Shown: positions 19,740 through 36,439, counted from the stretch's first letter. The stretch: DNA of 64,000 bases from Bacteriovoracia bacterium (GCA_050251055.1 JBFWNL010000004.1:1-64000), one strand, 5' to 3'. Translations and numbers: made by a program. Notes: generated by a model not told the origin, from the letters alone.

Positions 19740-19749
19740 TCAGCTCCGC

Positions 19750-20688: not shown

Positions 20689-20702
20689 GAAGGCTGAGTA
20701 TA

Positions 20703-20846: not shown

Positions 20847-20850
20847 ACAA

Positions 20851-23004: not shown

Positions 23005-23208
23005 ACATACACCCCCATCATGAGCCCGACGGTCAGCGCACGAACGAGCCGCGCCCTCTGCGGTCATCCGCGGAAAGCGTACAGTTTCGCCCGAGCGCCT
23101 AGGCCGCGCCCCGATAGTTACTATTCAGTTGTGACGGGATTTGCTGTACCCCGTCGGAAGTTTGACGAAGCGAGACCCATTCTCACTCCTGCACCCTTCC
23201 TACTGACT

Positions 23209-23290: not shown

Positions 23291-24346
23291 TCATTGTTTT
23301 ATCTTAGATATTTTATTGGCCGCCTCATAGGGGTCGATCTTTCGCTGGACAAGCCGAGTCACCAGCTTTTTACCCGGCGCACCAGCAAATGTGTTTTCGA
23401 CCTTTTTTTGAAGTTTTTCAGTCAGGATATCTAGGGTCTCATTTTTTAGGAACTCTTCGAGCCGGCGGGTTCGTAGCCCGCTCCGGGTAAGGTAGGCCTG
23501 GTGCTGGTCGACAGCCCCGAGGAGGTCATCTATCCCCTCGTTTTCGACCGCCTTGGTCTTTTGAACCGGAATCTCCCAATGGGAGGACTGGCGGCCCGCC
23601 CCTTCCGTGTCCACCCCGGCATCCGTCGGGGCGTCTGCTAGGGTGTCTGCCATAGAGTCCGTTAGAGCGACCATGTTCTTGAGCTCTTTCACGAGCTTCT
23701 CGGCCTCAGGTCGGTCACTTTTATTCACGACGAAGACATCGGCGATCTCCATCAAACCCGCCTTCATCACCTGGATCGAGTCACCGCTCTCGGGCACGAG
23801 CGTGACGATCACCGTCTGCGCGAGCCTCAAAATATCGAGCTCGGTCTGCCCCACGCCCGCGGTTTCCACGAGCACGACATCGAAGCCAGCCGCATCCAAT
23901 AAAAGCACCACTTCCTTCGTCGCATGGGAAAGCCCGCCATGTTTGCCGCGCGTGCCGAGCGAGCGAATATACACGCCCCTATCGCCGTAGTGCTGCTGCA
24001 TGCGGATGCGGTCACCTAAAATGGCGCCGCCCGAAAATGGGCTCGAGGGATCCACGGCGACGATCGCGACGCGCTTACCTTGCTTGCGCAGACGCACGGT
24101 CAGCTTATCGACCAAGGTGGACTTACCCGCGCCCGGCGGCCCCGTGATTCCCCAGACCTGCGCGCGGCCGGTTTTGGAAAACAGCATGCGAATGATTTCC
24201 GGCAGATCCTGGTCGCGGTTCTCGATCTTGGAAATGAGACGCGCTAGCGAAAGCCGATGACCGTCCATCATCTTCGAAACCAGCTCCGAGACGGCCGGCT
24301 TCTTCCGAATTTTCTGGGTTTTACCTGGACGAGCCATTACCCCCAA
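23291..24346 (-). CDS. meaB: Methylmalonyl-CoA mutase-associated GTPase MeaB
   Basis: GITGPPGAGKST, AVDPSSPFSGGAILGDRIRM, ETAGVGQ, GDSIQVMKAGLMEIAD, NKSD. Confidence 0.93.
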   Translation of the reverse strand: MGVMARPGKTQKIRKKPAVSELVSKMMDGHRLSLARLISKIENRDQDLPEIIRMLFSKTGRAQVWGITGPPGAGKSTLVDKLTVRLRKQGKRVAIVAVDPSSPFSGGAILGDRIRMQQHYGDRGVYIRSLGTRGKHGGLSHATKEVVLLLDAAGFDVVLVETAGVGQTELDILRLAQTVIVTLVPESGDSIQVMKAGLMEIADVFVVNKSDRPEAEKLVKELKNMVALTDSMADTLADAPTDAGVDTEGAGRQSSHWEIPVQKTKAVENEGIDDLLGAVDQHQAYLTRSGLRTRRLEEFLKNETLDILTEKLQKKVENTFAGAPGKKLVTRLVQRKIDPYEAANKISKIKQ

Positions 24347-24426: not shown

Positions 24427-25446
24427 CTAAAAAACCTGCTGAAACGTCGGCTCGGCGGGAGCCGCCTCTTTATTTGATTTTACTGGGGGTTTCGCGCCGG
24501 CCGGAGCGCGCGACGGGGCCGGGGGCACGATGGCGGCGGCCTTTTCACCCACGCCTAGGCTTTTCTCCGCCTCGCCACCCGGGGGCGGGGGGAGCGCGGG
24601 GGCGGCTGGGGTCTCGGCCGTGTTCATGGCGGCGTTAGCCGGACCAGACGTGGGAACGCCCGGGGCGGGAGTCGATTCGGGCGGCGCCGGCGCATCGAAA
24701 TCCATCGCGAACGCTTTTTCCTTCTCTTCCTTCGCCTTGGCTTCCGCTTCTTTTTTCTTGGCGAGCTCAATTTCCGCCAGGCGCTTCGGTTCCATGATCG
24801 CGTACTTATCCAAAACGGAACCTTGCTCCTCGTCCCGGCGCGCGAGCGAGAACGGATTCTGAACCTCTTCGACCAGCTCCTTGGACATGGCCGGGCCGAC
24901 GAGCACGCGGCGGTAGAAAACATACTCGCTGATCATGCGATACTGCTTGATCGCCCAGCGTAGGTAGCGGGGGTCTTTGTATTCCGCGCGAAAAGCGCGG
25001 GAAATCGGCGTGAGGAAATCGAACGTCTCGAGCACGGCTTTCTGGCGCTCTTCGACATAAAATGATTGTGAAAGACGCTCCTGCAGCTTGCGAATTTTAT
25101 GGAAGAAGCACCAGTGATACTTCACCGCATCCTGCTGCACGAGCTCGCGCGCGCCCTTGAAAACTTCTTCCTTGCTGTTCGTCGCCGTCTGCAGCTTCTT
25201 AAAATTTTCGTCGCAGTTCTCGAGATCCTTGGCCACCGGCGCTTCCTTCCGAATGAAGAGCGCGTTCAAATCACCGATGTCGTAGGTCTCGGGATAGGGG
25301 ACCTGCACAAAGCCGGGAACTTCCGGTAGCGGCTCCATCGGGCGCACTTCCTGCGTGCCGCAACCCGCGGTCAAACCGAGCGCGACGGCGCCGAGGCCAA
25401 TGAGCCCGAGCCGAAGGTGGGTGGAAGTTTGACGCTTCATAGACAC
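24427..25446 (-). CDS. Hypothetical lipoprotein with Pro/Ala-rich tail
   Basis: Lipobox TAGC, helical domain, disordered C-terminus; divergent from the mot operon. Confidence 0.75.
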   Translation of the reverse strand: MSMKRQTSTHLRLGLIGLGAVALGLTAGCGTQEVRPMEPLPEVPGFVQVPYPETYDIGDLNALFIRKEAPVAKDLENCDENFKKLQTATNSKEEVFKGARELVQQDAVKYHWCFFHKIRKLQERLSQSFYVEERQKAVLETFDFLTPISRAFRAEYKDPRYLRWAIKQYRMISEYVFYRRVLVGPAMSKELVEEVQNPFSLARRDEEQGSVLDKYAIMEPKRLAEIELAKKKEAEAKAKEEKEKAFAMDFDAPAPPESTPAPGVPTSGPANAAMNTAETPAAPALPPPPGGEAEKSLGVGEKAAAIVPPAPSRAPAGAKPPVKSNKEAAPAEPTFQQVF

Positions 25447-25643
25447 TGTCTCCAGTAGTCCTATCGGAAACCTGACTAGGCGAGTAAACTACCTTAATAA
25501 TTTTTTGACGCTATAAAAGCTCTATTAAGTCCACGCATTAGCCGCTCGACGGCGAAAATCGCCAGTTCTACACCAGCGTCAAAGCTCGGCAATCATTCAG
25601 GAATCAAGAAGATCAGCGGGCTTACCGAAAAAGAAAATGAGGA

Positions 25644-26879
25644 ATGGTGCCCATGAAGGCCTGGTTCGTACTACTCACGATCATTAATACAGGTTCCGCG
25701 TTCGCGGCGGATCCTCCTACGTCAGCCGCGCCCGCGCCTTCCGCCTCTTCGCCGGCCGCCGCGACCACGCCGCCCCCGGCTTCCGGCACTACCCAAGCGA
25801 CGACGGCGAATCCCACGGGAAATCCGAATCAAGGCAAGCCGACGCAATCGACGTTCGCGCCGGCCGCCGACAAAGATCAAAAGACGCGCAACTTCTATCA
25901 GGTGCTCGAAGACGTGATGGGCGATTTCGAATACGACCTAAAAAATGGACAGGTACGCGGCGTAAAAGATGTTTCCATCCGCGCTATCGCCACGAGCGAG
26001 AACGTGCCGCCTTCATTCAAACGCCAGCTCGAGATCTTGCTCACCGAGCGCGTGATCAAGAATACGCAAAGCCGCGTGATCCAGTGCCTGCCTTGCCAAT
26101 CGAAAAAAGCCACCTTGAGCGGCGACAACGTCGTGATCTCTTCCAACGAGCACAACGCGGTCGAGCTCGCGCGCCTGGCGAAAATCCACGGCATCGCTAG
26201 CTATATGGACGTGGCGTTCTCGTACCAGCCCACGGGGCTGTTGCTCTCGATCGCCATCATGGACGCCGAGAATAGCGCCATCCTGTGGTCGCGCAGCTAC
26301 AATTCGGAAACCTCACGCGCCGAGGCCTTCCGCCGTGGCGTGGACTACACGCAGGTCGACGAGGCCCGCCGCAAGGAAAGTTACGAGCCCACCACGCAAT
26401 ACCGCCCGACTTTGTATTATCTCTTCGAGAAGGACATCAGCTCTTACAGCGGGATGCTCGGGCTCGGTTTCCGCATGGTGGAGCGCTATGACAATCGGAA
26501 AAAAGAAGTCGGCTTCGAAATCAACTACCTGCTCAGTACGTCGACGCTCACCGGCGGCTCCGCCACTGCCACCACTACCCCGAGCGTGTACGGGGGGTTT
26601 AATGTCACGATGCTCTTCGTGCACGCATGGAACTTCATCGGGGATCTGGAAAACTACAACAAACCGCGCGGAAGCATCTCGGTCGGCCTGGGCGGCACTT
26701 ATTCGTCGGGTTTTTTGGGAGCGCTGCTTCGCACGGGTTACGAGTGGCGTTTGGGCAAGCATTGGGCGGTTACGGCGATCCTAGGTTACCGACCGCCGTC
26801 CACCGCGTTTATTTCAGGAAGTGAAGCTGGCTCCGTTTCGGGGCTGGAGTTTGGAGTGGGGATTAGTGCGTTACTTTAA
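25644..26879 (+). CDS. Exported protein: CsgG/FlgO/TolB-N-like domain plus C-terminal outer-membrane beta-barrel
   Basis: Signal peptide (AFA-A), Pro/Ala/Thr linker, LSIAIMDAENSAILWSRSY, amphipathic strands ending GLEFGVGISALL. Confidence 0.65.
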   Translation: MVPMKAWFVLLTIINTGSAFAADPPTSAAPAPSASSPAAATTPPPASGTTQATTANPTGNPNQGKPTQSTFAPAADKDQKTRNFYQVLEDVMGDFEYDLKNGQVRGVKDVSIRAIATSENVPPSFKRQLEILLTERVIKNTQSRVIQCLPCQSKKATLSGDNVVISSNEHNAVELARLAKIHGIASYMDVAFSYQPTGLLLSIAIMDAENSAILWSRSYNSETSRAEAFRRGVDYTQVDEARRKESYEPTTQYRPTLYYLFEKDISSYSGMLGLGFRMVERYDNRKKEVGFEINYLLSTSTLTGGSATATTTPSVYGGFNVTMLFVHAWNFIGDLENYNKPRGSISVGLGGTYSSGFLGALLRTGYEWRLGKHWAVTAILGYRPPSTAFISGSEAGSVSGLEFGVGISALL

Positions 26880-27675
26880 GGAAGCGATACACACCACCCG
26901 GGCAAGCCGGGCCGTACGAGGCGCAGCGCTCACGCTGCTGGCCGTCGTGTGTGCCGCGTTTCCCCAAGGCTGCGCCTCCATGAAGAACGCTCTAGGCTTA
27001 AACAACAATCAGCAGGAACCTTCGAAACCCATCGAAGACCCGTTTGGAAACTTCTACGAAGCGGCCAAGCACCGCAACGAAAATGTGATTTTACGCACGA
27101 AAAAAGGTGACCGCTCCATTGAGGTGGAGATGCCTTCGCGCGGTGAAGAGCAGCTCGCCGATCTGGTGGTCCCGATGTCGCCCCAGTTCGCCGACACCGG
27201 CTCCGGCCGCGGCCCCGCCTCAACGGGGGACGGCTACGGCCTGGACGCGAAGTACCAGGAGCAACGGCCTGGCCTTACGGACCGCGAAATCGCCCAGAGC
27301 ATGCCCCAAGGCAGCCCGGAAATGGCCGGGAAACGCAGCGAAATCGAAGAGGGTTTGGGCCTGGTGGGCGCCGACGATTCCGCCCCCGAAAACGATAAGA
27401 GTTATCTGGCCGCGATCGACTACATTAAGCAGCTCTATAAGAGCCGGCGTTACGAGGCGGCGCTCATCGAGATCGATCGCATGCTCCCTCGCTATCCGAC
27501 GGACGCGAAGCTCTATGAGATGCGCGGGACCCTGCTCGCGAAGCTGGGCTACGAAGATCTAGCGATGAAGTCGTGGGAGCAAGCCCTGTCCCTGAACCCG
27601 CGTAACAAGTCGTTAGCCAAGTTTCTGCAAGCCCGGAAGGATCCATTGAGAAGGGGGACGGCGTCATCGCCCTAA
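26866..27675 (+). CDS. TPR-containing lipoprotein
   Basis: Hydrophobic leader then QGC, C-terminal TPRs (YEAALIEIDRML, LYEMRGTLLAKLG, WEQALSLNP); start codon uncertain. Confidence 0.75.
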   Translation: MRYFKEAIHTTRASRAVRGAALTLLAVVCAAFPQGCASMKNALGLNNNQQEPSKPIEDPFGNFYEAAKHRNENVILRTKKGDRSIEVEMPSRGEEQLADLVVPMSPQFADTGSGRGPASTGDGYGLDAKYQEQRPGLTDREIAQSMPQGSPEMAGKRSEIEEGLGLVGADDSAPENDKSYLAAIDYIKQLYKSRRYEAALIEIDRMLPRYPTDAKLYEMRGTLLAKLGYEDLAMKSWEQALSLNPRNKSLAKFLQARKDPLRRGTASSP

Positions 27676-30098
27676 TGAATATGGTGAAGCATTCCTTCAA
27701 CTACCGCCAAATCATTCTCTGGGGGCTGACCCTTTATCTCACGCTCGCCACGCCGTTCGCCTTCGGCAGCAGCTATCAGGACTACGAGCGCGTGAAACGC
27801 GCTTCCGAAACCCAAGTGCGCAACATCGTGCAGCCGCTCGTTTCTAAATACTGCCAAGACCAATGCGAGCTCTTGAACGTCGAGGCGGAAGTAAAGACGG
27901 ATGATCCGGCGGCGATCGCCCCGGGGTTCGAGGACACGGACACCGCTGGCGGCTTACGCCTGGTGCCGGCGGTCGTGCGGGTGAAGCTCTTGATCGACGA
28001 GATGGTCGGCCCCAACCTGCGCCGTAACCTCATTGACCTCATCCATAAGCACCTCAACGCGATGGAATATCCGGTGGCGATCGACACTACGCTCACGCGC
28101 TTCCCGCAACCCTTGAACTCCGCACGCAAGGTCGCTGAGCTGCGGGACAAGGTCACGAAACAATTCAAAGAAACGCTGGGCCAGCTTTTCAACCAATTCT
28201 GTCCTGAGCAATGCCTCCTGGCCGACTATGACATTAAGGTCGAACCGGTTAACTTAGAGGAAACGCAGTACGGTTCCTCGGGCGAATACGTGCAGGACGG
28301 CGACACCGCGATCCGCGTGAAGAAAGTGACCGGCACGGTGCTCCTCGACACGACGCTCACGCCCGACGAGCAAAACAACATCATTGAAATGACGAAGCTC
28401 AAGACGAGCTACCTCAAGAACGTCGAGCTCATGGCCCAAACCATGACGTTTCCGCATCCACTACCGTTCGAAGGCGACGGAAAGCTGGGCGTGGGTCGCG
28501 GAGGGCTGGCGGGCCGCGGGGGCAAGAGCCTCTCGGAATCGCGCTCGCTCGCCTCCAACAGCGACTCCAAGTCGACCTTAAGCAAGCTCGATAAGCAAAA
28601 TTCCACCAGCAACAGCACGAATAGCAACAACAGCACCAACAGCAGCTCGAACAACGTCAACAGCAAGGACGCGATCGAGAAAAATGAAAACGCCACGAAG
28701 AACGAAAAGTTCGAGCGCTACGAGAAGATCGAGCGCGTGGAAGACGGCGATGCCGTTCAAGAACAGCTCAAACGATACGGCCTAATCGCCCTGGTTTTCG
28801 GCTGTTCCGTGGTGGCGCTCATGGTGCTCATGTGGATCGCGCTGGCGCGTCGCAACGACCGCGGTCGCGCGGGCGGACTGCCGCGCTTTATCCAGGGGAT
28901 CACCCCCGAGTTCCTGCAGCCCAAGGCGCCCGCCGCCGGCGATGGCGGCGTCGGATCCGGTCGTGGCGAGCTCATCGCCAAGCGGTACGAGATCGAGCAG
29001 CTTTGCGAAGAGCTTACCAAGGTGTTTGCCGAGCAGCCCAAGGTGGCCAAACACGTCTTTACCCGCATCCTGACCGAAGAGGGCGTCGAAATCACCGCCG
29101 ACTACCTCGCGATCTTTGGCGAAACGATCGTCATGGACATGTTGCGCGATCCGAACCTACAGCGTGACTTGACCGAACTGATGGAGTTCTTCGCGAAGAA
29201 TCAGATTGAGCTCAACGACGACGAGAAACTCGATCGCTTAAAACGGTTGCACAACCGCACGGTCGCTTCGAAGCTGATCGTGATGGGCAAACGTACGTCC
29301 AACTCGTTCGAGTTCCTGTTCGACATGGACAGCCTGCAGGTGTTGGAGCTGATCAAGAACGAATCCGTCACCGTGAAGGCGATCGTCATCACGCAATGCG
29401 ACCCGCAGAAGCGCACGGCTATCTTCAACCATCTGGACGAGCCGACGCGCATGAAGCTCCTGAACGAACTCTCGCGTATCGACTACCTGCCGCGCGACTA
29501 CATCTTCAACGTGGCCAACGCTCTCAAGCGCAAGCGTCAGGACAACCCGAAGCTCAACACGGAAGCCCTGCCGGGATCCGACGTGCTGGTCGGATTGCTC
29601 GAACGCACGCCCTTCGATATTCAACGCAATGTCGTGCAACAGCTCGAAGCCACCAACCCCGACAACGCCCGGGCGGTCAAGAGCAAGCTCGTCAGCATCG
29701 ACACGCTCACGTATCTACGCGATGCCCAGCTGCTCGAGATGGTCATGGGCCTGAAGCATGACGAGCTCCTGCAGTTCCTGAAAGGCGCGCCGAAGCATAT
29801 CTGCGACACGATCTACCGCAAGGCTCCGAAGGAGCTCGTCGAAGAACTCAACGAAGAGTTGGGATCGGTGTCCGAAGTGGGACGCGATGCCTACCAGACC
29901 ATCGAGCGTAAGCTCATCAATCGCATCAAAGTCATGGCCAACGAGGGCCACATCAACCTCGTGGAAACCAACGAGCGGATGTTCACCGATCGGCAAAGCA
30001 ACGTCGAGGCGATCACCCGCGGCGGCCAGGGCGGCGACGGCAACACCGGTGGCATGACGGGCACGGGCGGGCAGTTCAAGAAAGTGGCGGGTTGGTGA
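27675..30098 (+). CDS. FliF-like/FliG-like fusion membrane protein
   Basis: Signal peptide, two repeated CxxxC periplasmic domains resembling FliF ring-building motif 3, one TM, then FliG middle (FEFLFDMDSLQVLELIKNESVTVKAIVI) and C-terminal (LKGAP...NEEL...EGHINL) domains. Confidence 0.75.
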   Translation: MNMVKHSFNYRQIILWGLTLYLTLATPFAFGSSYQDYERVKRASETQVRNIVQPLVSKYCQDQCELLNVEAEVKTDDPAAIAPGFEDTDTAGGLRLVPAVVRVKLLIDEMVGPNLRRNLIDLIHKHLNAMEYPVAIDTTLTRFPQPLNSARKVAELRDKVTKQFKETLGQLFNQFCPEQCLLADYDIKVEPVNLEETQYGSSGEYVQDGDTAIRVKKVTGTVLLDTTLTPDEQNNIIEMTKLKTSYLKNVELMAQTMTFPHPLPFEGDGKLGVGRGGLAGRGGKSLSESRSLASNSDSKSTLSKLDKQNSTSNSTNSNNSTNSSSNNVNSKDAIEKNENATKNEKFERYEKIERVEDGDAVQEQLKRYGLIALVFGCSVVALMVLMWIALARRNDRGRAGGLPRFIQGITPEFLQPKAPAAGDGGVGSGRGELIAKRYEIEQLCEELTKVFAEQPKVAKHVFTRILTEEGVEITADYLAIFGETIVMDMLRDPNLQRDLTELMEFFAKNQIELNDDEKLDRLKRLHNRTVASKLIVMGKRTSNSFEFLFDMDSLQVLELIKNESVTVKAIVITQCDPQKRTAIFNHLDEPTRMKLLNELSRIDYLPRDYIFNVANALKRKRQDNPKLNTEALPGSDVLVGLLERTPFDIQRNVVQQLEATNPDNARAVKSKLVSIDTLTYLRDAQLLEMVMGLKHDELLQFLKGAPKHICDTIYRKAPKELVEELNEELGSVSEVGRDAYQTIERKLINRIKVMANEGHINLVETNERMFTDRQSNVEAITRGGQGGDGNTGGMTGTGGQFKKVAGW

Positions 30099-30613
30099 TG
30101 ATCGAAATAACGCCTACCGTCGAGTTATTGAAAGAGATCAATCTGTTCGCCTCGTTCAATGAGCACGAGCTGAACGAGATCTTGCGTACCGGTGAATCAA
30201 AGGTATTCGAGGCCTATAGCAACGTGGTCATCGAAGGCGAGCTGAGCTGGGGGCTTTACATTATTTTGGAAGGCACGGTCGGCATCTTCAAGAATAGCGC
30301 GACCGCGAAGGATATTACCTACGATATCGGCCAGCTAAAGAAAGGCAGCTTCTTCGGGGAGATGTCGCTCGTCGACGAGAATCCGCGCTCGGCCACCGTT
30401 CGCGCGCTTACCGAATGTCAGCTTTTTTTCATCTCCAAGGAAAGCTTCTCCGCCTTCCTGGACCGGTCCGGCGACGGAAAAAACCGGTTTTACGAACGAT
30501 GCGTGAAAATCCTGGTTGGCCGTTTGCGCGAGCTGAACGACAACTACGTCATCAGCCAGTACCAGCTGTGGAAGACCGCGCTGGAGAAAGATAAAGAAGA
30601 GGAAGTAGCCTAA
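30098..30613 (+). CDS. Stand-alone cyclic-nucleotide-binding domain protein
   Basis: LYIILEGTVGI, GSFFGEMSLVDENPRSATVRAL; no CRP HTH; TGATG overlap with the upstream gene. Confidence 0.9.
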   Translation: MIEITPTVELLKEINLFASFNEHELNEILRTGESKVFEAYSNVVIEGELSWGLYIILEGTVGIFKNSATAKDITYDIGQLKKGSFFGEMSLVDENPRSATVRALTECQLFFISKESFSAFLDRSGDGKNRFYERCVKILVGRLRELNDNYVISQYQLWKTALEKDKEEEVA

Positions 30614-31398
30614 TGAATATCTCATCTTTATTCGGCGTATTGTTGGGTATCGGGGTCGTCTACTCATCGCTCCACGAGAGCGGCATGGACATGATCTTCT
30701 TCCTGAACTTTCACGGGGTGGTCATCGTTTGCGGCGGCACCCTTGCCGCTGCCAGCATCAGCTTTCCCATGACGAAGATCGTCTCGCTATTGAAAGTATT
30801 TTTCCTGCGCGTGCTGGGCCGCAACCGGATTGACTACCAAGGCACGATCGAACAGATCTTGGATTTGAATAAAAAAGTTAGCATCGGTAGTGCCGCGTTG
30901 AAGGACGTAATTCAGACCATCAAGCACCCTTTCTTAAAGGAAGCCGTGGGCCTGGTCGCCACCGGCGTGCTCACCGAGCGCGAAATTCGCACCGTGCTCG
31001 AGCAGCGCATTAAAACGATGGAATCGCGCTACTTGCACGAAGCCAACATGTTCAAGGCCATCGGCAAGTTTCCGCCGGCCTTCGGGCTGCTCGCCACCAC
31101 GCTCGGCATGATCGCGCTTTTGCAGCAGATGGGAAAACCGGGCAGCGAAAAGCTCATCGGACCGGCCATGTCCATCGGGTTGATCGGCACCCTATACGGG
31201 ATCGCGCTCACGAACCTAGTCTTTCTCCCGATCGCGGAAAACCTCACCGAACGCACCGAGGAAGAAATGGTGCTGCGCCGGATGATCGTCGAAGGGGCCG
31301 TGCTGCTCAAAGCCCAAACCAATCCGTTGGCCCTGCGCGAAAACCTCAACTCGTTCCTGGCTCCAAAGGACCGGGTTACCCGCAAGTCAGCGGCCTAA
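30613..31398 (+). CDS. motA: MotA-family stator subunit
   Basis: IVCGGT, HPFLKEAV, PPAFGLLATTLGMI, GPAMSIGLIGTLYG, FLPIAENL. Confidence 0.92.
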   Translation: MNISSLFGVLLGIGVVYSSLHESGMDMIFFLNFHGVVIVCGGTLAAASISFPMTKIVSLLKVFFLRVLGRNRIDYQGTIEQILDLNKKVSIGSAALKDVIQTIKHPFLKEAVGLVATGVLTEREIRTVLEQRIKTMESRYLHEANMFKAIGKFPPAFGLLATTLGMIALLQQMGKPGSEKLIGPAMSIGLIGTLYGIALTNLVFLPIAENLTERTEEEMVLRRMIVEGAVLLKAQTNPLALRENLNSFLAPKDRVTRKSAA

Positions 31399-31416
31399 GG
31401 GGCATAAGGAGCAGCG

Positions 31417-32232
31417 ATGGCCGTTAACGATTTCCTGAAAGCCGCCAAGCAGATTCAGGAAGAAGAAAAAAAGAAACAAGATCCGCCCAAAAAAGGGGGC
31501 CACGACGACGAGTCGAACTGGCTGATTTCCTACGCGGACATGATGACCTTGCTTTGCGGATTCTTCATCATGCTTTTCAGCATGTCTAGCCTAAGCAAAC
31601 CGAAATACGAGGCCGCCGCGAAGGAGATTTCGGAGCACTTCGGCGCGGTGAAGCAGGACGAAGTGCCGAATCCAGAGCTCGTGAACGAGATGAAAAAAGT
31701 CATCCACGAATCCCATCTAGACAAGGAGGTGAAAGTCACCTCCACCCAAGAGGGGGTCACGATCGTATTCGCTTCTACCGTGCTCTTTAACTCGATGAGC
31801 TCTTACATCCGCGAGGACGGGCGCACGGTGCTGAATCAGCTCATCGGCACGATCAAAGGGCAGCAAGAAAAGGGCGATGAACGTTTTAAGATCGTAGTGG
31901 AAGGCCATACCGACGCGCAACCCATCTTGAGCGGAATCTATCCGTCTAACTGGGAGCTTTCTAGCGCACGCGCCACGAAGGTGGTCCGCATGTTTCATGA
32001 CGAAGGCTTCGATCCCGCTCGCCTCATGGCGATCGGCTACGCCGACTCGCGTCCCGAAGCTAAGAACCGCACGCTGGCGGGCGCCTGGGACGAAGAAGCT
32101 CTGAAAAAAAACCGCCGCGTCGTCATCCACGTTTTCGATCCCAGCGTCGACTCCATTCCTTGGCGCGAAAAAACCGCCGCCCCGCCGCCGCGCGCCGCTG
32201 CATCTTCTGGCCCGGCAGAATCTGCCCATTGA
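31417..32232 (+). CDS. motB: MotB-family stator subunit
   Basis: WLISYADMMTLLCGFFIMLFSMS with the conserved Asp; OmpA-like domain VEGHTD, NWELSSARA, GYADSRP, NRRV. Confidence 0.93.
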   Translation: MAVNDFLKAAKQIQEEEKKKQDPPKKGGHDDESNWLISYADMMTLLCGFFIMLFSMSSLSKPKYEAAAKEISEHFGAVKQDEVPNPELVNEMKKVIHESHLDKEVKVTSTQEGVTIVFASTVLFNSMSSYIREDGRTVLNQLIGTIKGQQEKGDERFKIVVEGHTDAQPILSGIYPSNWELSSARATKVVRMFHDEGFDPARLMAIGYADSRPEAKNRTLAGAWDEEALKKNRRVVIHVFDPSVDSIPWREKTAAPPPRAAASSGPAESAH

Positions 32233-32279
32233 ACTAACCCAGTCCCCCTGGAAATCTAGACAGTGGGAGACTGAAAAAT

Positions 32280-33314
32280 ATGCGTTGGAATTGCCCTCAC
32301 TGTGGAACCACGTTGACCGTATCGGACGATAAGGTAGGCGAGAACTGGTCGTTTTCACGTTGCTACTCTTGCCAAGGCTTCGCGCTGGTGAGGAAATCGC
32401 AGGTCAGCATCATTAAAGTTCATCAACCTCCCTCCGGCGAGCAGTACATCGTCACCACTCATCAGCAGGAGCAGGCTTCCGCGACCCACTCCCAAACGCA
32501 TCACGACGCACGCCCCGCCGCCCGCCCCGTCGTGCGACCCGTGGTTCGCCAACCGGCGGCCCTGCCCCCGCCGATCGAAGTCGCGCCCGTCATGCACCAG
32601 GCTCCTTCTATGCATATGGCCGTTCCCCTGGCGGCCCCGACTGCTCCCAGCCCTACGAAAACGCAGATGTTCACCATATCCGATGGCACGGGCGCCGAGA
32701 CGATCACCGTCGCCGCGACTACCTCTAGTCCACGCCGAAAAATGCCGGCCGCGCTCGTACCCATTGGTATCGGGCTTGCGGGCGCTATCGCCATATCGTC
32801 GGGAGTTTATCTCTATCAGCAAGGCCAGGCCTTGTTTCAACTGGCGCAAAAACCGATCGCAGCGGAATCCCCCACGGAAATGCAGGTGGCGCGATTGCAA
32901 GCCCCCCCCTCGCTCGATCGCATCCCGCAAAGCGCGATGGCGCCCGAGCGCGTGACCGAAATCCGCAGCCTGCCTAAAATCGAGCGCATCGATCCTCCCG
33001 AAGTCCGTCCGGCGGCCCCGATCGCGATCACCAAGCGCGTAGAAGAAAAGCGAGAGGAGTCGGACGACACCCCGGCCATCGAGCCGCGCCCCACCGCGGT
33101 GCAGGTCAAAAACAGTTACGCGAATCTCCGCGCCGGCCCTAGCCTCGAGCATCCCATCGTGGGCGTGGCCGAACCCGGCACGATCTACCTGATCAAGACC
33201 TGGGAGGGGCGCTGGTTCAACATCGTGCCCGAAGATCCCGCGCAGGCGGCGCTTCAAAAGAAATCGATGTGGGTGCGTAATGACCTGGTGGAGACCCTCG
33301 TCTCCACGAATTAA
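32280..33314 (+). CDS. Zinc-ribbon / single TM / SH3b protein
   Basis: CPHC...CYSC N-terminus, Pro-rich linker, TM LVPIGIGLAGAIAISSGVYLY, ANLRAGPSLEHPIVG SH3b. Confidence 0.75.
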   Translation: MRWNCPHCGTTLTVSDDKVGENWSFSRCYSCQGFALVRKSQVSIIKVHQPPSGEQYIVTTHQQEQASATHSQTHHDARPAARPVVRPVVRQPAALPPPIEVAPVMHQAPSMHMAVPLAAPTAPSPTKTQMFTISDGTGAETITVAATTSSPRRKMPAALVPIGIGLAGAIAISSGVYLYQQGQALFQLAQKPIAAESPTEMQVARLQAPPSLDRIPQSAMAPERVTEIRSLPKIERIDPPEVRPAAPIAITKRVEEKREESDDTPAIEPRPTAVQVKNSYANLRAGPSLEHPIVGVAEPGTIYLIKTWEGRWFNIVPEDPAQAALQKKSMWVRNDLVETLVSTN

Positions 33315-33319
33315 GTCGC

Positions 33320-34798
33320 CTAGCGATCCAACCCGATGGGTTCGCAACGCCAAAGGGTCAGCGTTTTCGCCGGAAAGTTTAAACGCCGAAACTCACGCGC
33401 CAGCCGCGGCTGGCAATTTGCCTCGAGAAACCGGGGCGGCTCCGCGTAACGATTGTCCGCCACATAATAAACCGGCTTCAATAGCTTCGGCCATTCGGGG
33501 CCCCATCCGCTCACGGCTTCCGTTTCCGGCCACTCGTCACGCTCGCGAGCGGGGCGCGGAACGCGGGCGACGCCTTCCACGCGCTTGAGCGCGAAGGCCG
33601 CTTGGGCGGCCGTTTGGTACCGGCTCGCTAAGACCACCGGCTCCGTTTCGTCCGGCGCGGCTTCCGCCAGCATCTCGCCAAAGCCCGCCCAACCGACGAG
33701 ATCGTTACTGACGTCCCATTTCGGTTCCAGCTCCTTGCCACTGAAAGTGCGCGAACTCCAAGCCATGAGTGGCAGCTGACAGGAAAGCAAGATAACGACG
33801 ACCCAGCCCAAACCGTAAGCGGCCTGCAGCCGCGGCCACAGGCCATCGACTTCTGACTTTTCAGTCATGCGGCCAATGGCTTCCAAGGCGAGCGGCAGCC
33901 ACGCCGCAAAGATCCAATGCGGTTTAAAATCCGAAAAAAGCGGCTGAATCGCGTAGGCGAGCAGGGGCGGCAAGGCCCAAGCCCACGCGAAGCGCGAGAC
34001 GCGCTCACCCGCGCGTGCGCGGCGCAGGCCGCGCAAAAAAAACCAGACCAACGCCGGTCCGAGCAGCACGAGCTGCAGGATCCAAAAACGCCCGAAGCGC
34101 GCCCAGGAAAGCCCCGTCCCACCATGTCGCTCTTTCATTTGATAAGCGAGCGCGGCCCAGTCGTGGGCGGAATTCCAAAGCACCGTGGGCAAAAGGCCGA
34201 TCGCCGTAGCCACGAGCATTACTCCCAGCCCTGGCGCGCGGGAGCCGGGACGGGAAAAAATCAGGGCGCAAAGCACCGCCGACGCGGCCACCGCCCCCCC
34301 GGAAAGCTTCGCCCACATCGCGATCACGATCCCCGTCGCCAGCCACCCAAAATGCCACCGAGACGACGATCCCGCGGCGATTTCCCAAGCTCCGTTCATC
34401 GCCAGCAGGACGCCCGCGAAGAGCGGCAGATCCGGCACCGCCATCCAGGCAAATCCGTAGAGAAAAGTCGTCCCCAGCCACGCGGCCACCAGCCAGCCCG
34501 GCGACACCGGCACGAACGCGCGCAAAATCCAACGCAACCCCAGGAAGAAAATCAGCGCCGCGTAGACCGCCGACACCAGCCGCACGGAGATTTCGGCCGA
34601 AACCAACCGCTCCGCCAACCAAATCGACCAGACGATGGCGGGCGGGTGGTAGGCGAACCCCCAGTCGGGCCGCTGCGCGAGCACCCAGTAATAAGCTTCG
34701 TCGTCTGAGAGCCCGAACGAATTCCCGAAGATGAGGTAGAAACCAAAGACCCCAAGCGTGGACCAGGCCAGCCAACGCGGCAGAGGGGCGATGCGCAT
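33320..34798 (-). CDS. ArnT/PMT-like membrane glycosyltransferase (GT-C)
   Basis: DDEAYYW, YHPP, PDLP, multiple TMs, WNSAHDW. Confidence 0.85.
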   Translation of the reverse strand: MRIAPLPRWLAWSTLGVFGFYLIFGNSFGLSDDEAYYWVLAQRPDWGFAYHPPAIVWSIWLAERLVSAEISVRLVSAVYAALIFFLGLRWILRAFVPVSPGWLVAAWLGTTFLYGFAWMAVPDLPLFAGVLLAMNGAWEIAAGSSSRWHFGWLATGIVIAMWAKLSGGAVAASAVLCALIFSRPGSRAPGLGVMLVATAIGLLPTVLWNSAHDWAALAYQMKERHGGTGLSWARFGRFWILQLVLLGPALVWFFLRGLRRARAGERVSRFAWAWALPPLLAYAIQPLFSDFKPHWIFAAWLPLALEAIGRMTEKSEVDGLWPRLQAAYGLGWVVVILLSCQLPLMAWSSRTFSGKELEPKWDVSNDLVGWAGFGEMLAEAAPDETEPVVLASRYQTAAQAAFALKRVEGVARVPRPARERDEWPETEAVSGWGPEWPKLLKPVYYVADNRYAEPPRFLEANCQPRLAREFRRLNFPAKTLTLWRCEPIGLDR

Positions 34799-35722
34799 TT
34801 AACTTCTACCGGCCACCGGATCCGGCGTCTTCACTTGCGGATCCGGAACGCGGAACTGAATAACGGTCTCGATGCCGGAGAGGAAGTGATTCCAGTACTC
34901 TTCGGCCCGCTGCGGATTGGTCGACGGGAGCTCCAGGGTAAGCGTGGGAATGCCGCGCTCTTGGCCGGTGTAATTTCCGAGCGAACCTGGATAAAAACCG
35001 CCCGAGTGGGCGTTCACGTGCTGCCGCAGCTGCAGGCACTTCGTTACGTACTCGGAAGGGAACTTCGCGAGCGCAAGCACGTCGGGGCCGTCATAGTCCA
35101 TGAAATTCAGTGGCGAATGCACGGAGATGATCTTATTGGGCTTGTACTCGGAAATCAGCTTCGCCTGGAACTGCGTTTCCGGCTCTGACTCGGCTTGCTT
35201 GCCGGGAAAATAACGGGGATCCGCGCGATACTTCTTCTTCCACATCCTGGTCGCATCCTTCGCCCAGTCCGCGGTATTGAAATTACGGTTCACATCCACT
35301 TTGTTCGCATTCGTGCGCGTCCGCGGGTGGCGATAAAAGCCGTCCGGATTCACCAGCGGGGCGATCACGATGCGCGTTCCCGGGTATTTGGAAGTGTTCG
35401 CCTCCAGCCAATCCATCAGGCGCAGACCCAGGAAGAGCGGAGTGGTTTCGTCGCCGTGGACCATCGAAAATACGAGCGTGGTGTTCTTCGCGTTCGGATC
35501 GCCGAACTCACGGAAAACCAACGGGCGCCCCTTCACCGAACGCCCTCCCACGCGCATGTCCTTAAATTGGCAGGCGTCGAGCTTCCACTTGAATTTCTTG
35601 AGCTCCGGGTTCAGCTCCTGGCACCACTTCTTCAGATCCTCGTCGGCCCCGATCATCGCGGAACCCGTGAGGGAAACCAGCATGGCCACGGCCAGCGCGG
35701 CGCCCGGCAGTCGCCGCTTCAT
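34799..35722 (-). CDS. M14 zinc carboxypeptidase (murein peptide amidase MpaA-like), exported
   Basis: GRSVKGRPL, HGDE, NPDG, VDVNRNF, SEPET, SVHS, TLELP; ATGA overlap with dedA. Confidence 0.88.
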   Translation of the reverse strand: MKRRLPGAALAVAMLVSLTGSAMIGADEDLKKWCQELNPELKKFKWKLDACQFKDMRVGGRSVKGRPLVFREFGDPNAKNTTLVFSMVHGDETTPLFLGLRLMDWLEANTSKYPGTRIVIAPLVNPDGFYRHPRTRTNANKVDVNRNFNTADWAKDATRMWKKKYRADPRYFPGKQAESEPETQFQAKLISEYKPNKIISVHSPLNFMDYDGPDVLALAKFPSEYVTKCLQLRQHVNAHSGGFYPGSLGNYTGQERGIPTLTLELPSTNPQRAEEYWNHFLSGIETVIQFRVPDPQVKTPDPVAGRS

Positions 35723-36348
35723 GGCTTCACCACCCGTTGGCTGCGGGAATTGAGGTACCATTTCAAGGTGAGGATCAACGCCACCGAGATGATCACGAAG
35801 ATGATCCCGTGCTCGACCCGGCGGATCACTTTAATAATGTGATCGACTTCGTCGCCAAAATAATAAACGGAGTAGACGATGGCGGGCACGCTGATCAGCG
35901 AAGCCAAACCATCGTAGAAGAAAAAGATCCGGAACGGCAGGTGCAGGGTGCCGGCGGAGAAAAAGATCGGCATGCGCAACCCCGGCATGAAACGCGCGGC
36001 GAAGATCACCTTGTTGCCCTGGTTGTGGAGTTTCTTCTGGACCATGTCCAAGCGCTCCGGAGGCAGCAGCTTCCGGAAGAGCCAAAACCGGTTCACCAGC
36101 TTGCGGCCGTGTTTGTGCCCTAGGTAAAAAATCGCGCTATCGCCCAGCAGCACACCCACCAAAGAGATGAGAACCATTACAAAAACATTCGACTCTTCCG
36201 GGAACAAATGGGCGTAGTAACCCGCGCCGAACAACACGATGTCCTCGGGAACGGGCAAGCCAAAACCGCAAGCCAGGAGCGTCCCGAATAGAAGCAGGTA
36301 CGCGTTCGTCCCGGAGATGTTGAACATGAAGTCGACTAGCTTATCCAT
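35719..36348 (-). CDS. dedA: DedA family membrane protein
   Basis: GFGLPVPED, LLGDSAIFYLG, ARFMPGLR. Confidence 0.9.
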   Translation of the reverse strand: MDKLVDFMFNISGTNAYLLLFGTLLACGFGLPVPEDIVLFGAGYYAHLFPEESNVFVMVLISLVGVLLGDSAIFYLGHKHGRKLVNRFWLFRKLLPPERLDMVQKKLHNQGNKVIFAARFMPGLRMPIFFSAGTLHLPFRIFFFYDGLASLISVPAIVYSVYYFGDEVDHIIKVIRRVEHGIIFVIISVALILTLKWYLNSRSQRVVKP

Positions 36349-36439
36349 ATAGAAAACGTCCGCAAAAGACGGCGGAAATCAGTATTCCACTAGGCGCGAA
36401 AATCGGGGAGGAAAAAAGCGAACGAATCAATATACTCGG

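What the first reader, a model, noticed from the sequence alone, without database searches (positions are those of the whole stretch)
25644..33314. Candidate novel envelope-spanning rotary machine: OM barrel + TPR lipoprotein + FliF-FliG fusion + cNMP sensor + MotAB
Seen: six co-directional genes with tight junctions (TAATG at 27675 and 30613, TGATG at 30098) and a Zn-ribbon/SH3b gene just downstream. The set supplies a stator, a FliG-type rotor joined to a membrane/periplasmic ring-like protein, an OM component and a regulator. It contains no FliM/FliN, export gate, rod or hook genes. Known: MotA5B2 stators drive FliG rings, related 5:2 motors power Ton, Tol, gliding and Zorya without FliG, and B. 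bacteriovorus has three motAB pairs. Inference: a self-contained minimal rotor-stator module repurposed for a non-flagellar job such as surface motility, prey attachment or penetration, secretion or mechanosensing.
Basis: partly seen in the sequence, partly recalled or inferred. Interest (0 to 1): 0.92.

Follow-up and report, generated by a model that had tools for sequence, protein, structure and literature searches.

The report
Ring-FliG fusion with its own stator
Besides its ordinary flagellar genes, an uncultured Bdellovibrionota lineage carries a conserved gene set that fuses a ring-forming membrane protein to the flagellar rotor protein FliG and pairs it with its own MotAB ion motor and outer-membrane partners; it looks like a small, undescribed motor whose job is unknown.

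Summary
Six co-directional, tightly joined genes (25644-32232) encode:
- a signal-peptide protein with a TolB-N/LpoB-like domain and an 8-stranded OM barrel;
- a TPR lipoprotein;
- an 807-aa membrane protein with two periplasmic ring-building-motif (RBM)-like domains, a TM helix and a full FliG N/M/C array;
- a cNMP-binding protein;
- a flagellar-type MotA and MotB.

Canonical fliF-fliG and two canonical flagellar MotAs lie elsewhere in the genome.

The OM protein, the TPR lipoprotein, the fusion and MotA share one presence/absence pattern: all four occur in the same 23 of 40 same-order genomes. They are syntenic in 20 of 20 loci examined. A paralogous module with the same parts list occurs in some relatives.

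Three FliG motifs used for FliM binding and switching are lost, while an acidic torque helix and the MotB Asp, plug and OmpA domain are kept. Four copies of the periplasmic part are predicted to pack head-to-tail.

"FliF" holds only at fold level; no sequence or profile homology was found. Every carrier genome is flagellated, so independence from the flagellum is not shown. My searches found no description in print.

Best reading (about 0.5): a dedicated, switchless rotor-stator module coupled to the outer membrane. Its output is unknown.

The parts
24427..25446 (-). Divergently transcribed lipoprotein (339 aa) of unknown fold; a possible accessory part.
   Evidence: No Pfam hit. A homologue sits divergent from the module in 17 of 20 loci. 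Lipobox Cys in the family. The ESM Atlas gave nothing above chance level.
25644..26879 (+). Outer-membrane protein (411 aa): signal peptide, disordered Pro/Ala/Thr-rich stretch (residues 22-79), TolB-N/LpoB-like alpha/beta domain (84-245) and 8-stranded beta-barrel (250-409).
   Evidence: AF2 model from a 21-sequence alignment, pLDDT 73.8. Foldseek: TolB 3e-7, OmpW 4.5e-5, OmpA, LpoB C-domain 2.4e-4. The C-terminal residue is aromatic in 20 of 21 family members. Found in the same 23 of 40 relatives as the fusion.
26821..27675 (+). TPR lipoprotein (ORF of 284 aa as listed; the true start is probably further downstream, and the lipobox Cys is at ORF residue 51).
   Evidence: TPR_2, TPR_9, TPR_14 and TPR_8 hits at residues 199-263, all below cut-off. 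Lipobox Cys in 21 of 21 family members. Full-length homologue in the same 23 of 40 relatives.
27675..30098 (+). 807-aa RBM-RBM-TM-FliG fusion, the proposed rotor subunit.
   Evidence: Pfam FliG_M and FliG_C. AF2 model pLDDT 76.9. Foldseek and VIA matches to FliG and to FliF rings. 204 homologues of about 740-840 aa.
27768..28445 (+). Two periplasmic alpha-beta-beta-alpha-beta (RBM-like) domains, residues 32-141 and 147-257, each with a conserved CxxxC.
   Evidence: pLDDT mostly above 90. VIA: residues 146-260 against FliF RBM3, Z 10.6-11.0, rmsd 2.2-2.6, 96-99 residues aligned; residues 33-260 against FliF 125-438, Z 10.4. C60, C64, C176 and C180 are invariant in 63 of 63 sequences. Four copies are predicted to bind head-to-tail: score 0.48, best control 0.00.
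28467..28724 (+). Disordered Ser/Asn/Thr-rich periplasmic linker (residues 265-350).
   Evidence: pLDDT below 50. Family length 35-103 residues, median 82; S 19%, N 13%, T 10%.
28743..28850 (+). Juxtamembrane helix plus transmembrane helix (residues 357-392).
   Evidence: Single long helix in the AF2 model. The hydrophobic stretch can be read directly in the translation.
29079..30017 (+). Cytoplasmic FliG-like N, M and C domains (residues 469-781), preceded by two helices (429-468).
   Evidence: VIA: residues 469-768 against Salmonella FliG 5-327, Z 13.4. FliG_M (541-622): Z 12.4, rmsd 1.6. FliG_C (672-760): Z 11.2, rmsd 1.9. Stator-bound FliG (8ucs_H): Z 10.6. The family HMM hits the genome's own FliG at 5.8e-19.
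30092..30613 (+). Stand-alone cNMP-binding protein (173 aa; a likely ATG start at 30098), the proposed regulator.
   Evidence: PF00027, 70.8 bits. The phosphate-binding cassette G-E...R-[ST]-A is kept in 15 of 15 family members, as is a conserved C-terminal helix. The gene is absent from 6 of 20 loci, L036-L041.
30613..31398 (+). MotA (261 aa), a flagellar-type but divergent stator A subunit.
   Evidence: PF01618, 68 bits. Best NCBIfam hits are MotP, MotA and PomA, all below cut-off. PDB MotA/PomA hits at 3e-32 to 1e-26. It groups with flagellar MotAs and not with ExbB/TolQ-like genes, support 100/100. Orthologues of at least 61% identity occur only in the 23 module-bearing relatives.
31417..32232 (+). 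MotB (271 aa): plug, TM helix with the conserved Asp, and an OmpA-like peptidoglycan-binding domain.
   Evidence: MotB_plug 66.7 bits and OmpA 50.1 bits. The Asp in the SYADMMTLL motif is kept in 20 of 20 sequences.
32280..33314 (+). Zn-ribbon / TM / SH3b-like protein (344 aa). An optional neighbour; membership of the module is doubtful.
   Evidence: MJ0042_CXXC 23.7 bits, over the cut-off. SH3_3 is below cut-off. A homologue lies near the module in 7 of 20 loci, once on the other side.

Best explanation
The locus encodes a self-contained, switchless rotor-stator module that exists alongside the flagellum.

Proposed rotor (inferred from models). The 807-aa protein oligomerises through its two periplasmic RBM-like domains into a ring or arc. 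This presents an array of FliG-like N/M/C domains at the cytoplasmic face of the inner membrane.

Proposed stator. The dedicated MotA/MotB unit carries the ion-binding Asp, a plug and a peptidoglycan anchor, all shown in sequence. It pushes on the acidic FliG_C helix as ions flow (inferred).

Output (inferred). Movement or force passes through the TM helix and the long periplasmic linker to the RBM ring. From there it reaches the co-inherited TPR lipoprotein and the OM barrel protein with its TolB-N/LpoB-like domain, so the work is done at the outer membrane. My committed guess is surface or envelope movement rather than secretion, at low confidence.

Regulation (inferred by analogy with YcgR). 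The small cNMP-binding protein gates the motor as a clutch or brake. It is dispensable in one genus.

No FliM/FliN switch, export gate, rod or hook takes part.
For: 1. Parts and junctions are confirmed.
2. The fold of the fusion: two RBM-like domains matching FliF RBM2-RBM3 (Z 10.4-11.0), plus FliG N/M/C (Z 11-13, rmsd 1.6-1.9 per domain).
3. Canonical fliF-fliG (contig 3) and two MotAs over their NCBIfam cut-offs lie elsewhere. The module's MotA is below every cut-off.
4. The OM protein, the TPR lipoprotein, the fusion and MotA (at least 61% identity) occur in the same 23 of 40 same-order genomes and were found in none of the other 17. Both states occur within families f4 and f11.
5. Gene order: OM-TPR-fusion-MotA in 20 of 20 loci; MotB in 19 of 20, the 20th being cut by its contig end.
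6. A paralogous module in other genomes (L119, L121) has the same parts list in a different order: a FliG_M/FliG_C membrane protein, MotA, MotB, a TPR lipoprotein and an OMP barrel-like protein.
7. Against the genome's own FliG, the family has lost the EHPQ motif (now NES[LV]T), the Gly-Gly linker (now PG) and MFVF (now LVS[IL]). It keeps [KR][DE]LxxELxEEL on the torque helix.
8. MotB keeps the Asp in 20 of 20 sequences. MotA keeps a basic pair and an acidic residue near the R90/E98 positions.
9. Four copies of the periplasmic part: ipSAE 0.48 (runs 0.48, 0.43, 0.57) against a best control of 0.00. In the tool's calibration the mark was reached by 20 of 30 proteins solved as pairs of one chain and 1 of 23 solved as single chains. 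Runs agree in at least 78% of contacts and partner pLDDT is at least 76. The interface is head-to-tail. My own alignment and four copies were used, so the calibration holds only roughly. RBM rings are solved, so the pass may reflect likeness to those structures.
10. The cNMP cassette is intact in 15 of 15 sequences, and the genome has 5 class III cyclase domains.
Against: - All 41 genomes searched have canonical FliG and 25 of 25 have FliF, so independence from the flagellum is untested.
- FliD and two flagellin genes lie 2.5-9 kb upstream in the window, and flagellins lie near the module in 7 of 20 loci.
- Unrelated flanking genes (XerC, VTT, M14 peptidase) are also syntenic among these relatives. 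Gene order alone is therefore weak evidence.
- There is no sequence or profile homology to FliF.
- The RBM-like fold also matches MamB/MamM C-terminal domains and OsmC at Z 8-10, so the fold is common.
- A median 82-residue disordered linker between ring and TM helix is a poor torque shaft.
- The R281-equivalent position is acidic, and the MotA charges are shifted relative to the canonical pattern. A MotA-FliG_C contact is inferred, not tested.
- No expression data were available.
- Everything rests on sequence and predicted structure.
Confidence: 0.5

Rival explanations
1. Accessory part of the flagellar motor. The MotAB pair is a third stator set for the canonical FliG ring. The TPR lipoprotein and OM protein are periplasmic scaffolds, like the TPR proteins PflA, MotC, MotK and FlcB. 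The RBM-FliG fusion parks, recruits or titrates stators at the flagellar pole.
For: - MotA lies on the flagellar side of the MotA/ExbB tree and hits MotP, MotA and PomA best.
- Every carrier genome is flagellated.
- Flagellin and FliD genes are nearby.
- TPR partners of stator scaffolds are known (PMC13023049, passages read).
- Multiple stator sets on one flagellum are well known (abstracts in the listing).
Against: - Relatives without the module keep FliF, FliG and flagellar-type MotA, so the flagellum does not need it.
- The module brings its own full FliG N/M/C array with a conserved acidic torque helix, yet without the FliM-binding and switch motifs.
- Its MotA co-occurs strictly with that FliG-like protein: 23 of 23 carriers against 0 of 17 non-carriers.
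- A second paralogous FliG-like/MotAB/TPR/OMP set exists.
Confidence: 0.22
2. A force transducer rather than a rotor. As in Ton, Tol or Agl-Glt, the MotAB unit acts on individual or small groups of fusion proteins. The FliG-like domain is only the stator-docking adaptor. Force is passed as pulling through the TM helix and the long flexible linker to an OM complex. The RBM domains make a static periplasmic or OM-proximal assembly.
For: - The long, disordered, length-variable linker (35-103 residues) resembles the extended linkers of TonB/TolA-type transducers (recalled) more than a shaft.
- The OM partner has a TolB-N-like domain.
- There is no rod or bearing genes.
Against: - MotA is of the flagellar type, not the ExbB/TolQ/AglR type.
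- The whole FliG N/M/C array, which in flagella forms a ring, is kept.
- The predicted head-to-tail homo-oligomer interface fits an open polymer or ring.
Confidence: 0.2
3. The genes are only neighbours through inherited synteny and do not work together. The FliG-like domain is a regulatory MgtE_N-type module.
For: Unrelated flanking genes are also syntenic in this order. A weak MgtE_N hit (21.9 bits, below cut-off) overlaps FliG_M.
Against: - Start and stop codons overlap at three junctions.
- Four genes show an identical presence/absence pattern, with joint absence inside two families.
- The same parts list recurs in a paralogous module.
- FliG_M and FliG_C score over their Pfam cut-offs, and the folds match FliG at rmsd 1.6-1.9.
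Confidence: 0.03

Closest known systems
Flagellar MS-ring/C-ring rotor (FliF + FliG) driven by MotA5B2 stators
   Same: - RBM-type periplasmic domains, a TM helix and FliG N/M/C folds.
- A flagellar-type MotA, and a MotB with Asp, plug and OmpA domain.
- The rotor-stator charge logic R90/E98 against R281/D288/D289 is described in PMC12505986 (passage read).
   Different: - One polypeptide instead of two.
- No sequence homology to FliF, and no counterpart of the RBM3 beta-collar: only 96-99 residues align across FliF 228-438.
- A long disordered linker.
- The EHPQ, Gly-Gly and MFxF motifs are lost.
- No FliM/FliN, export gate, rod or hook in the cluster.
- Own OM barrel protein and TPR lipoprotein.
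Chlamydiaceae natural FliF-FliG fusion (Bergeron 2016, PMC4768692; abstract and passages read)
   Same: A natural fusion of a shortened FliF-like periplasmic region with two RBMs, a TM helix and a cytoplasmic FliG-like domain, outside a complete flagellum.
   Different: - The chlamydial protein is about 330 aa and carries only the FliG M region.
- The paper names only a few flagellar genes in Chlamydia (FliF, FliL, FlhA).
- The paper suggests it may interact with the injectisome component SctQ.
- Here the full FliG N/M/C array, a dedicated MotAB and OM partners occur in a flagellated organism.
- Homology between the two was not tested.
Engineered FliF-FliG fusions of Salmonella and Vibrio (PMC4768692 passage; abstracts of PMC11481574, bioRxiv 10.1101/2023.02.06.527414 and PMC6079021 in the search listings)
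   Same: They show that a covalent FliF-FliG chain can still form rings. In Salmonella it supports flagellum assembly and rotation.
   Different: They are laboratory constructs of canonical proteins inside a complete flagellum.
Non-flagellar 5:2 motors that energise the outer membrane (ExbBD-TonB, TolQR-TolA, AglRQS-Glt, GldLM, ZorAB; grouping from PMC12505986 passages, otherwise recalled)
   Same: An inner-membrane ion motor is coupled through the periplasm to OM components. The OM partner here has a TolB-N-like domain.
   Different: - Those systems use ExbB/TolQ-type A subunits and no FliG.
- Here MotA is of the flagellar type and the coupling protein carries FliG.
- No ZorA hit for MotA; only the generic MotB-ZorB likeness appears.
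Periplasmic stator scaffolds of polar flagella (TPR proteins PflA, MotC, MotK, FlcB; E-ring proteins FlgY, FlbB, MotE) - PMC13023049, passages read
   Same: TPR proteins are genetically and physically tied to MotAB function. ARM/FliG-like folds are reused.
   Different: Those act on the canonical motor, and their FliG-like heads are periplasmic. Here the FliG array is cytoplasmic and membrane-tethered, with its own ring-forming domains.
YcgR-type second-messenger brakes (PMC12713396, abstract in the listing)
   Same: A small nucleotide-binding protein encoded with, or acting on, a rotor-stator pair.
   Different: A cNMP (CAP-type) domain instead of PilZ with c-di-GMP. The target was not tested.

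Membership tests
FliG (Pfam FliG_M PF14841, FliG_C PF01706; NCBIfam TIGR00207) | FliG_C domain over the Pfam cut-off, with the FliG_C fold | tested here: met
   44.5 bits against a cut-off of 23.3. VIA Z 11.2, rmsd 1.9 over 89 residues against T. maritima FliG_C.
FliG (Pfam FliG_M PF14841, FliG_C PF01706; NCBIfam TIGR00207) | FliG_M domain over the Pfam cut-off | tested here: met
   35.0 bits against a cut-off of 25. VIA Z 12.4, rmsd 1.6 over 80 residues.
FliG (Pfam FliG_M PF14841, FliG_C PF01706; NCBIfam TIGR00207) | Equivalog score (TIGR00207) and the usual size of a roughly 340-aa soluble protein | tested here: not met
   50.7 bits against a cut-off of 226.7. The protein is an 807-aa membrane protein, whereas the genome's own canonical FliG is 337 aa.
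FliG (Pfam FliG_M PF14841, FliG_C PF01706; NCBIfam TIGR00207) | FliM-binding and switch motifs: EHPQR, the Gly-Gly linker and MFxF (the first two names appear in abstracts of the listing; MFxF is recalled) | tested here: not met
   Aligned with the genome's own FliG: EHPQ becomes ES[LV]T, GG becomes PG, and MFVF becomes LVS[IL], in the 21 family members aligned.
FliG (Pfam FliG_M PF14841, FliG_C PF01706; NCBIfam TIGR00207) | Charged torque helix (R281, D288, D289 equivalents) | tested here: inconclusive
   The acidic pair is kept. The R281-equivalent is D/E, and the residue before it is basic in 14 of 21 sequences.
FliF / YscJ_FliF (PF01514) | Sequence match to the family model or to FliF profiles | tested here: not met
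   No Pfam hit at E up to 0.01. The family HMM does not hit the genome's own FliF. hhalign against 22 FliFs: probability 2.4%. The weaker hits of the 1.84-billion-protein search that were scanned (6 of 540-620 aa) show FliG_C or MgtE_N in 5, nothing in 1, and YscJ_FliF in none.
FliF / YscJ_FliF (PF01514) | Ring-building-motif (alpha-beta-beta-alpha-beta) periplasmic domains | tested here: met
   Two such domains with pLDDT above 90. FliF RBM3: Z 10.6-11.0. FliF RBM2+3: Z 10.4. Unrelated alpha/beta domains (MamB/MamM, OsmC) also reach Z 8-10.
FliF / YscJ_FliF (PF01514) | RBM3 beta-collar and a third RBM (RBM1) | tested here: not met
   Only two domains are modelled. The second, of 111 residues, aligns to FliF 228-438 over 96-99 residues, leaving the collar without a counterpart.
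Flagellar stator MotAB | MotA_ExbB domain, and placement with flagellar MotA rather than ExbB/TolQ | tested here: met
   68 bits. A clade with the genome's two canonical MotAs has support 100/100, apart from 7 ExbB/TolQ-like genes. Only own-genome references were used.
Flagellar stator MotAB | NCBIfam equivalog cut-offs for MotA, MotP, PomA, MotB, MotS and MotD | tested here: not met
   Best MotA hit 149.2 bits against 394. Best MotB hit 168.2 against 283.
Flagellar stator MotAB | MotB plug, conserved TM Asp and OmpA-like domain | tested here: met
   Pfam hits. The Asp is kept in 20 of 20 sequences.
Flagellar stator MotAB | It drives the flagellar FliG ring | not testable with these tools
   This needs genetics or imaging.
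Zorya (ZorAB + ZorC/D/E) | ZorA-type A subunit and Zor effector genes | tested here: not met
   PADLOC gives no hit for MotA or for the other genes. Only the generic MotB-ZorB likeness appears.
cNMP-binding domain (PF00027) | Domain over the cut-off with an intact phosphate-binding cassette | tested here: met
   70.8 bits against 27.5. G-E...R-[ST]-A is kept in 15 of 15 sequences. The ligand was not tested.

The most novel reading that the evidence does not exclude
This is a free-standing FliG/MotAB rotary motor with no type III export apparatus, rod, hook or switch. A ring of RBM-FliG fusion subunits is turned by its own stators and coupled to an outer-membrane barrel/TPR complex. It would be one of at least two paralogous such machines in Bdellovibrionota. 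That would make it a non-flagellar use of the flagellar rotor-stator pair, either a relic of a pre-flagellar 'motor first' stage or a secondary spin-off.
Probability: 0.35. Interest if true: 0.92.

Novelty: new variant of a known kind. Interest (0 to 1): 0.8.

Why it matters
As far as my searches reach, FliG-MotAB torque generation is known only inside flagella. Every other 5:2 motor (Ton, Tol, Agl, Gld, Zor) works without FliG.

This is a natural, conserved module that keeps only the rotor-stator core, fuses it to ring-building domains and wires it to outer-membrane proteins. If it works as proposed, it would show that the core can work, and evolve, apart from the export apparatus and axial structures.

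It would give a small, tractable system of five or six genes for studying torque generation without a switch. It would also bear on models of flagellar origin.

It would add a cyclic-nucleotide input to a Mot-type motor. The existence of a second paralogous set suggests a family of such machines.

The carriers are almost all uncultured, so the first tests would be heterologous.

Tried and rejected
- RNA evidence: no RNA holder was listed for 25644-33314.
- An ESM Atlas search of the upstream 339-aa lipoprotein gave only sub-threshold hits (best 0.76; TM at most 0.26).
- The promoter and terminator scan of 25300-33500 was at chance level: 3 promoter-like sites against 2.4 expected, and 6 terminator-like sites against 10.5.
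- Charge-swap idea. I first read the MotA E98-equivalent as Lys and the FliG R281-equivalent as Glu, a compensating swap. The family alignments do not bear this out. The MotA position is variable (K, N, A, S, Q, H, D) with a conserved D/E one residue later, and no covariation with the FliG position was seen. Dropped.
- Sequence-level FliF ancestry was rejected for lack of signal. The 540-620-aa hits, which I took for FliF at first, are a shorter FliG-bearing paralogue family.
- Zorya and other defence systems were rejected.
- Literature. Five searches found no description of a natural RBM-FliG fusion with a dedicated MotAB in Bdellovibrionota. The nearest is the chlamydial fusion.
The homologue and gene-neighbourhood tables of PMC12505986 could list this MotAB class, and I could not see them.
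- Not tried: MotA-FliG_C or cNMP-protein docking (the single complex job went to the ring question), and a FliG tree with outgroups from other phyla.

Full report
**What is there**

The stretch 25644-32232 holds six co-directional ORFs, and a seventh runs to 33314. Three junctions overlap stop and start codons: TAATG at 27673-27677 and 30611-30615, and TGATG at 30096-30100.

Pfam gives:
- FliG_M (35.0 bits, residues 555-624) and FliG_C (44.5 bits, residues 656-762) in the 807-aa protein;
- cNMP_binding (70.8 bits) in the 173-aa protein;
- MotA_ExbB (68 bits);
- MotB_plug (66.7 bits) and OmpA (50.1 bits).

The 284-aa ORF has only sub-threshold TPR hits, but it and its 20 orthologues carry a lipobox Cys.

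The 411-aa protein matches no family. Its AF2 model (21-sequence alignment, pLDDT 73.8) has four parts: a signal helix, a disordered stretch, an alpha/beta domain (residues 84-245) and an 8-stranded barrel (residues 250-409). Foldseek matches the alpha/beta domain to TolB (3e-7) and the LpoB C-domain (2.4e-4), and the barrel to OmpW, OmpA and OmpX.

**The 807-aa protein**

The AF2 model used a 63-sequence alignment and has pLDDT 76.9. In order it shows:
- an N-terminal hydrophobic helix;
- two alpha-beta-beta-alpha-beta domains (residues 32-141 and 147-257, mostly pLDDT above 90);
- a disordered linker (residues 265-350);
- one long helix that includes the TM segment (residues 357-392);
- a second disordered stretch;
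- an all-helical cytoplasmic part (residues 429-781).

Foldseek puts full-length FliG first (3hjl, 6e-8) and FliF MS-ring chains next (7bk0_B at 1.7e-4, then 8t8p and 6scn).

VIA-align gives these ranges:

| Model residues | Target | Z | rmsd | Aligned residues |
|---|---|---|---|---|
| 469-768 | Salmonella FliG 5-327 | 13.4 | 20.6 | 282 |
| 541-622 | FliG_M | 12.4 | 1.6 | 80 |
| 672-760 | FliG_C | 11.2 | 1.9 | 89 |
| 674-761 | FliG bound to MotAB (8ucs_H) | 10.6 | 2.1 | 88 |
| 146-260 | FliF RBM3 | 10.6-11.0 | 2.2-2.6 | 96-99 |
| 33-260 | FliF 125-438 | 10.4 | 12.6 | 175 |

The same alpha/beta fold also matches MamB/MamM C-terminal domains and OsmC at Z 8-10, so the fold by itself is common.

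At sequence level the FliF likeness fails:
- no YscJ_FliF Pfam hit;
- the family HMM of the periplasmic part finds nothing else in the genome, while the cytoplasmic HMM finds the genome's own FliG at 5.8e-19;
- hhalign of the periplasmic profile against 22 FliFs of relatives gives probability 2.4%.

I therefore call it an RBM-RBM-TM-FliG fusion with FliF-like architecture, not a shown FliF homologue.

**Canonical flagellar genes**

The genome (21 contigs, 93.5% complete) has one FliF (565-aa frame) next to one canonical FliG (337 aa) on contig 3.

It has ten MotA/ExbB-family genes. Two of them exceed NCBIfam flagellar MotA cut-offs: 279 bits against 237, and 349.6 against 303.8. The module's MotA is below every cut-off, its best being 149.2 against 394.

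A tree of 34 MotA/ExbB sequences places three groups in one clade, supported 100/100, apart from seven ExbB/TolQ-like genes. The three groups are the module MotAs (20 rows, support 95/90), five paralogues and the two canonical MotAs. Relations inside that clade are unresolved, and the references come from this genome only.

**Conservation**

The fusion has 204 database homologues at E up to 1e-3 among 8000 scored candidates. The 120 listed are 740-839 aa and 47-57% identical (the window's own protein apart). They are unnamed or called FliG, and where labelled they come from Bdellovibrionota-type MAGs.

A genome-collection scan returned 73 loci. All but one are labelled as MAGs, and most are labelled Bdellovibrionota, Oligoflexia or Bacteriovoracaceae.

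Presence and absence among relatives:
- Among 40 same-order genomes, 23 hold the long form (one of them as fragments) and 17 do not. All 41 genomes, counting the window's own, hold a canonical FliG of about 340 aa.
- MotA orthologues of at least 61% identity occur in the same 23 genomes; the best match in the other 17 is at most 39%.
- The OM protein occurs in the same 23.
- The TPR lipoprotein also occurs in the same 23, with one weak TPR-only match elsewhere.
- Absences fall inside families f4 and f11 as well as in the whole of f2, so the four genes appear to be kept or lost together. Because the genomes are kin, no statistic is offered.

In 20 loci fetched from 20 of the 23 genomes, the order OM-TPR-fusion-MotA is kept in 20 of 20. 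MotB follows in 19 of 20; the last locus ends at its contig edge. The cNMP gene is present in 14 of 20 and absent from L036-L041. The divergent upstream lipoprotein is present in 17 of 20, and the Zn-ribbon/SH3 gene in 7 of 20.

Unrelated flanking genes (XerC, VTT, M14 peptidase) are also syntenic, and flagellins lie nearby in 7 of 20 loci. Gene order alone therefore carries limited weight.

Across 401 genomes of the phylum, the periplasmic part is found in 70. Of these, 69 are among the 92 genomes of the window's order. The remaining one is a single weak match among the 309 genomes outside it.

**A wider family**

A profile of the periplasmic part, searched against 1.84 billion representative proteins, finds 160 proteins at E up to 1e-3 and 96 at E up to 1e-10. 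They are long forms of 700-990 aa, short forms of 540-620 aa that match one RBM only, and fragments.

Of ten scanned, nine carry FliG_C, FliG_M or MgtE_N, one has no hit, and none carries YscJ_FliF.

In two relatives (loci L119 and L121), a short form of 627-631 aa (FliG_C 30.7 bits) sits directly before a paralogous MotA (37-38% identical) and a MotB with plug and OmpA domain. A TPR lipoprotein and a weak OMP_b-brl protein lie beside them.

The same parts list thus recurs in a different order. For me this is the strongest argument that the OM and TPR genes belong to the machine. The window's genome lacks this second set.

**Functional residues**

Against the genome's own FliG, the family changes three motifs:
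- EHPQ becomes ES[LV]T;
- the Gly-Gly linker becomes PG;
- MFVF becomes LVS[IL].

These are the motifs used for FliM binding and switching. The torque helix reads [KR][DE]LxxELxEEL. The acidic pair is kept, the R281-equivalent is acidic, and the preceding residue is basic in 14 of 21 sequences.

MotA keeps a basic pair (NK[KR]) and a D/E near the R90/E98 positions, but shifted. MotB keeps the Asp in 20 of 20.

The cNMP protein keeps the phosphate-binding cassette in 15 of 15 sequences. The genome has five class III cyclase domains.

**Oligomerisation**

Four copies of residues 29-268 (alignment A3) gave ipSAE 0.48 (runs 0.48, 0.43 and 0.57) against 0.00 for the best of three controls.

- In the tool's calibration, the mark was reached by 20 of 30 proteins solved as pairs of one chain and by 1 of 23 solved as single chains.
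- The runs agree in at least 78% of contacts, and partner pLDDT is at least 76.
- My own alignment and four copies make the calibration only roughly valid.
- RBM rings are solved, so the pass may reflect likeness to those structures.

The interface is head-to-tail, with a helix face against a strand face. That fits an open polymer or ring. The conserved CxxxC cysteines lie at or beside both faces.

**Reading**

The evidence supports a dedicated pairing of a FliG-bearing, self-associating membrane protein with its own flagellar-type stator and two outer-membrane-side partners, without a switch or export parts.

Three things are inferred rather than shown: that it rotates, that it is independent of the flagellum, and what it does. 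A median 82-residue disordered linker (range 35-103) between ring and TM helix argues against a stiff shaft. It keeps a Ton/Tol-like pulling mechanism alive as a rival.

The flagellar-accessory rival is kept alive by two facts: every carrier genome is flagellated, and flagellin genes lie nearby.

**Novelty**

Five literature searches found no description of this module. The nearest precedent is the chlamydial FliF-FliG fusion of about 330 aa with FliG_M only (PMC4768692). Engineered fusions show that such chains can form rings.

I rate the finding a new variant of a known kind. There is a substantial chance (about 0.35) that it is a truly non-flagellar FliG motor.

Noticed in passing
L119 (G035:C10:218000-234000) 4830-13415; L121 (G029:C6:406000-422000) 4653-12834: A second, paralogous module. 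It comprises a 627-631-aa membrane protein with FliG_M/FliG_C, then MotA (37-38% identical to the window's) and MotB, with a TPR lipoprotein and small OM barrel-like proteins beside them, and two secreted proteins of unknown family upstream. It was not found in the window's genome.
   Followed up: partly
G000 contig 7, 101388-101852 (-), and contig 10, 18898-19329 (+): Two small soluble proteins (154 and 143 aa) that consist of little more than a FliG_C-like domain (95.8 and 47.9 bits). The second lies next to an rpoD-like gene. They could be stator-binding decoys or regulators.
   Followed up: partly
window 27852-27866 and 28200-28214 (residues C60/C64 and C176/C180 of the fusion): Each RBM-like domain carries a CxxxC that is invariant in 63 of 63 aligned homologues. 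In the predicted tetramer these cysteines sit at or beside both subunit faces. Inter-subunit disulfides or a metal site are possible.
   Followed up: partly
window 30018-30095 (residues 782-807 of the fusion): A disordered C-terminal tail ends in a conserved [KR][KR]V[AS]GW-type motif; 31 of 63 homologues end in AG[WFY]. In the six loci without the cNMP gene, the terminal aromatic residue is missing. This is a lead only, because the genomes are kin.
   Followed up: partly
window 16238-23067 (- strand): FliD (16238-17638) and two flagellin genes (20851-21684 and 22174-23067) lie upstream. A MeaB-type GTPase (23291-24346) and the divergent lipoprotein separate them from the module.
   Followed up: partly
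window 33320-37303 (- strand): Four genes are syntenic with the module in several relatives, which shows general synteny in this order. They are a 492-aa polytopic membrane protein with no Pfam hit, an M14 carboxypeptidase-like protein, a VTT/DedA-type protein and a XerC-like recombinase.
   Followed up: partly
P0172, P0174, P0189, P0210: Forms of the fusion family with 912-986 aa carry an extra 165-200 residues before the first RBM-like domain.
   Followed up: no
loci: Several of the 73 records carry other taxon labels: Lysobacteraceae, Nitrosovibrio, Alphaproteobacteria, Deltaproteobacteria, and plain Proteobacteria, Pseudomonadota or 'bacterium'. All of these are MAGs. One record is not labelled a MAG (L079).
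   Followed up: no
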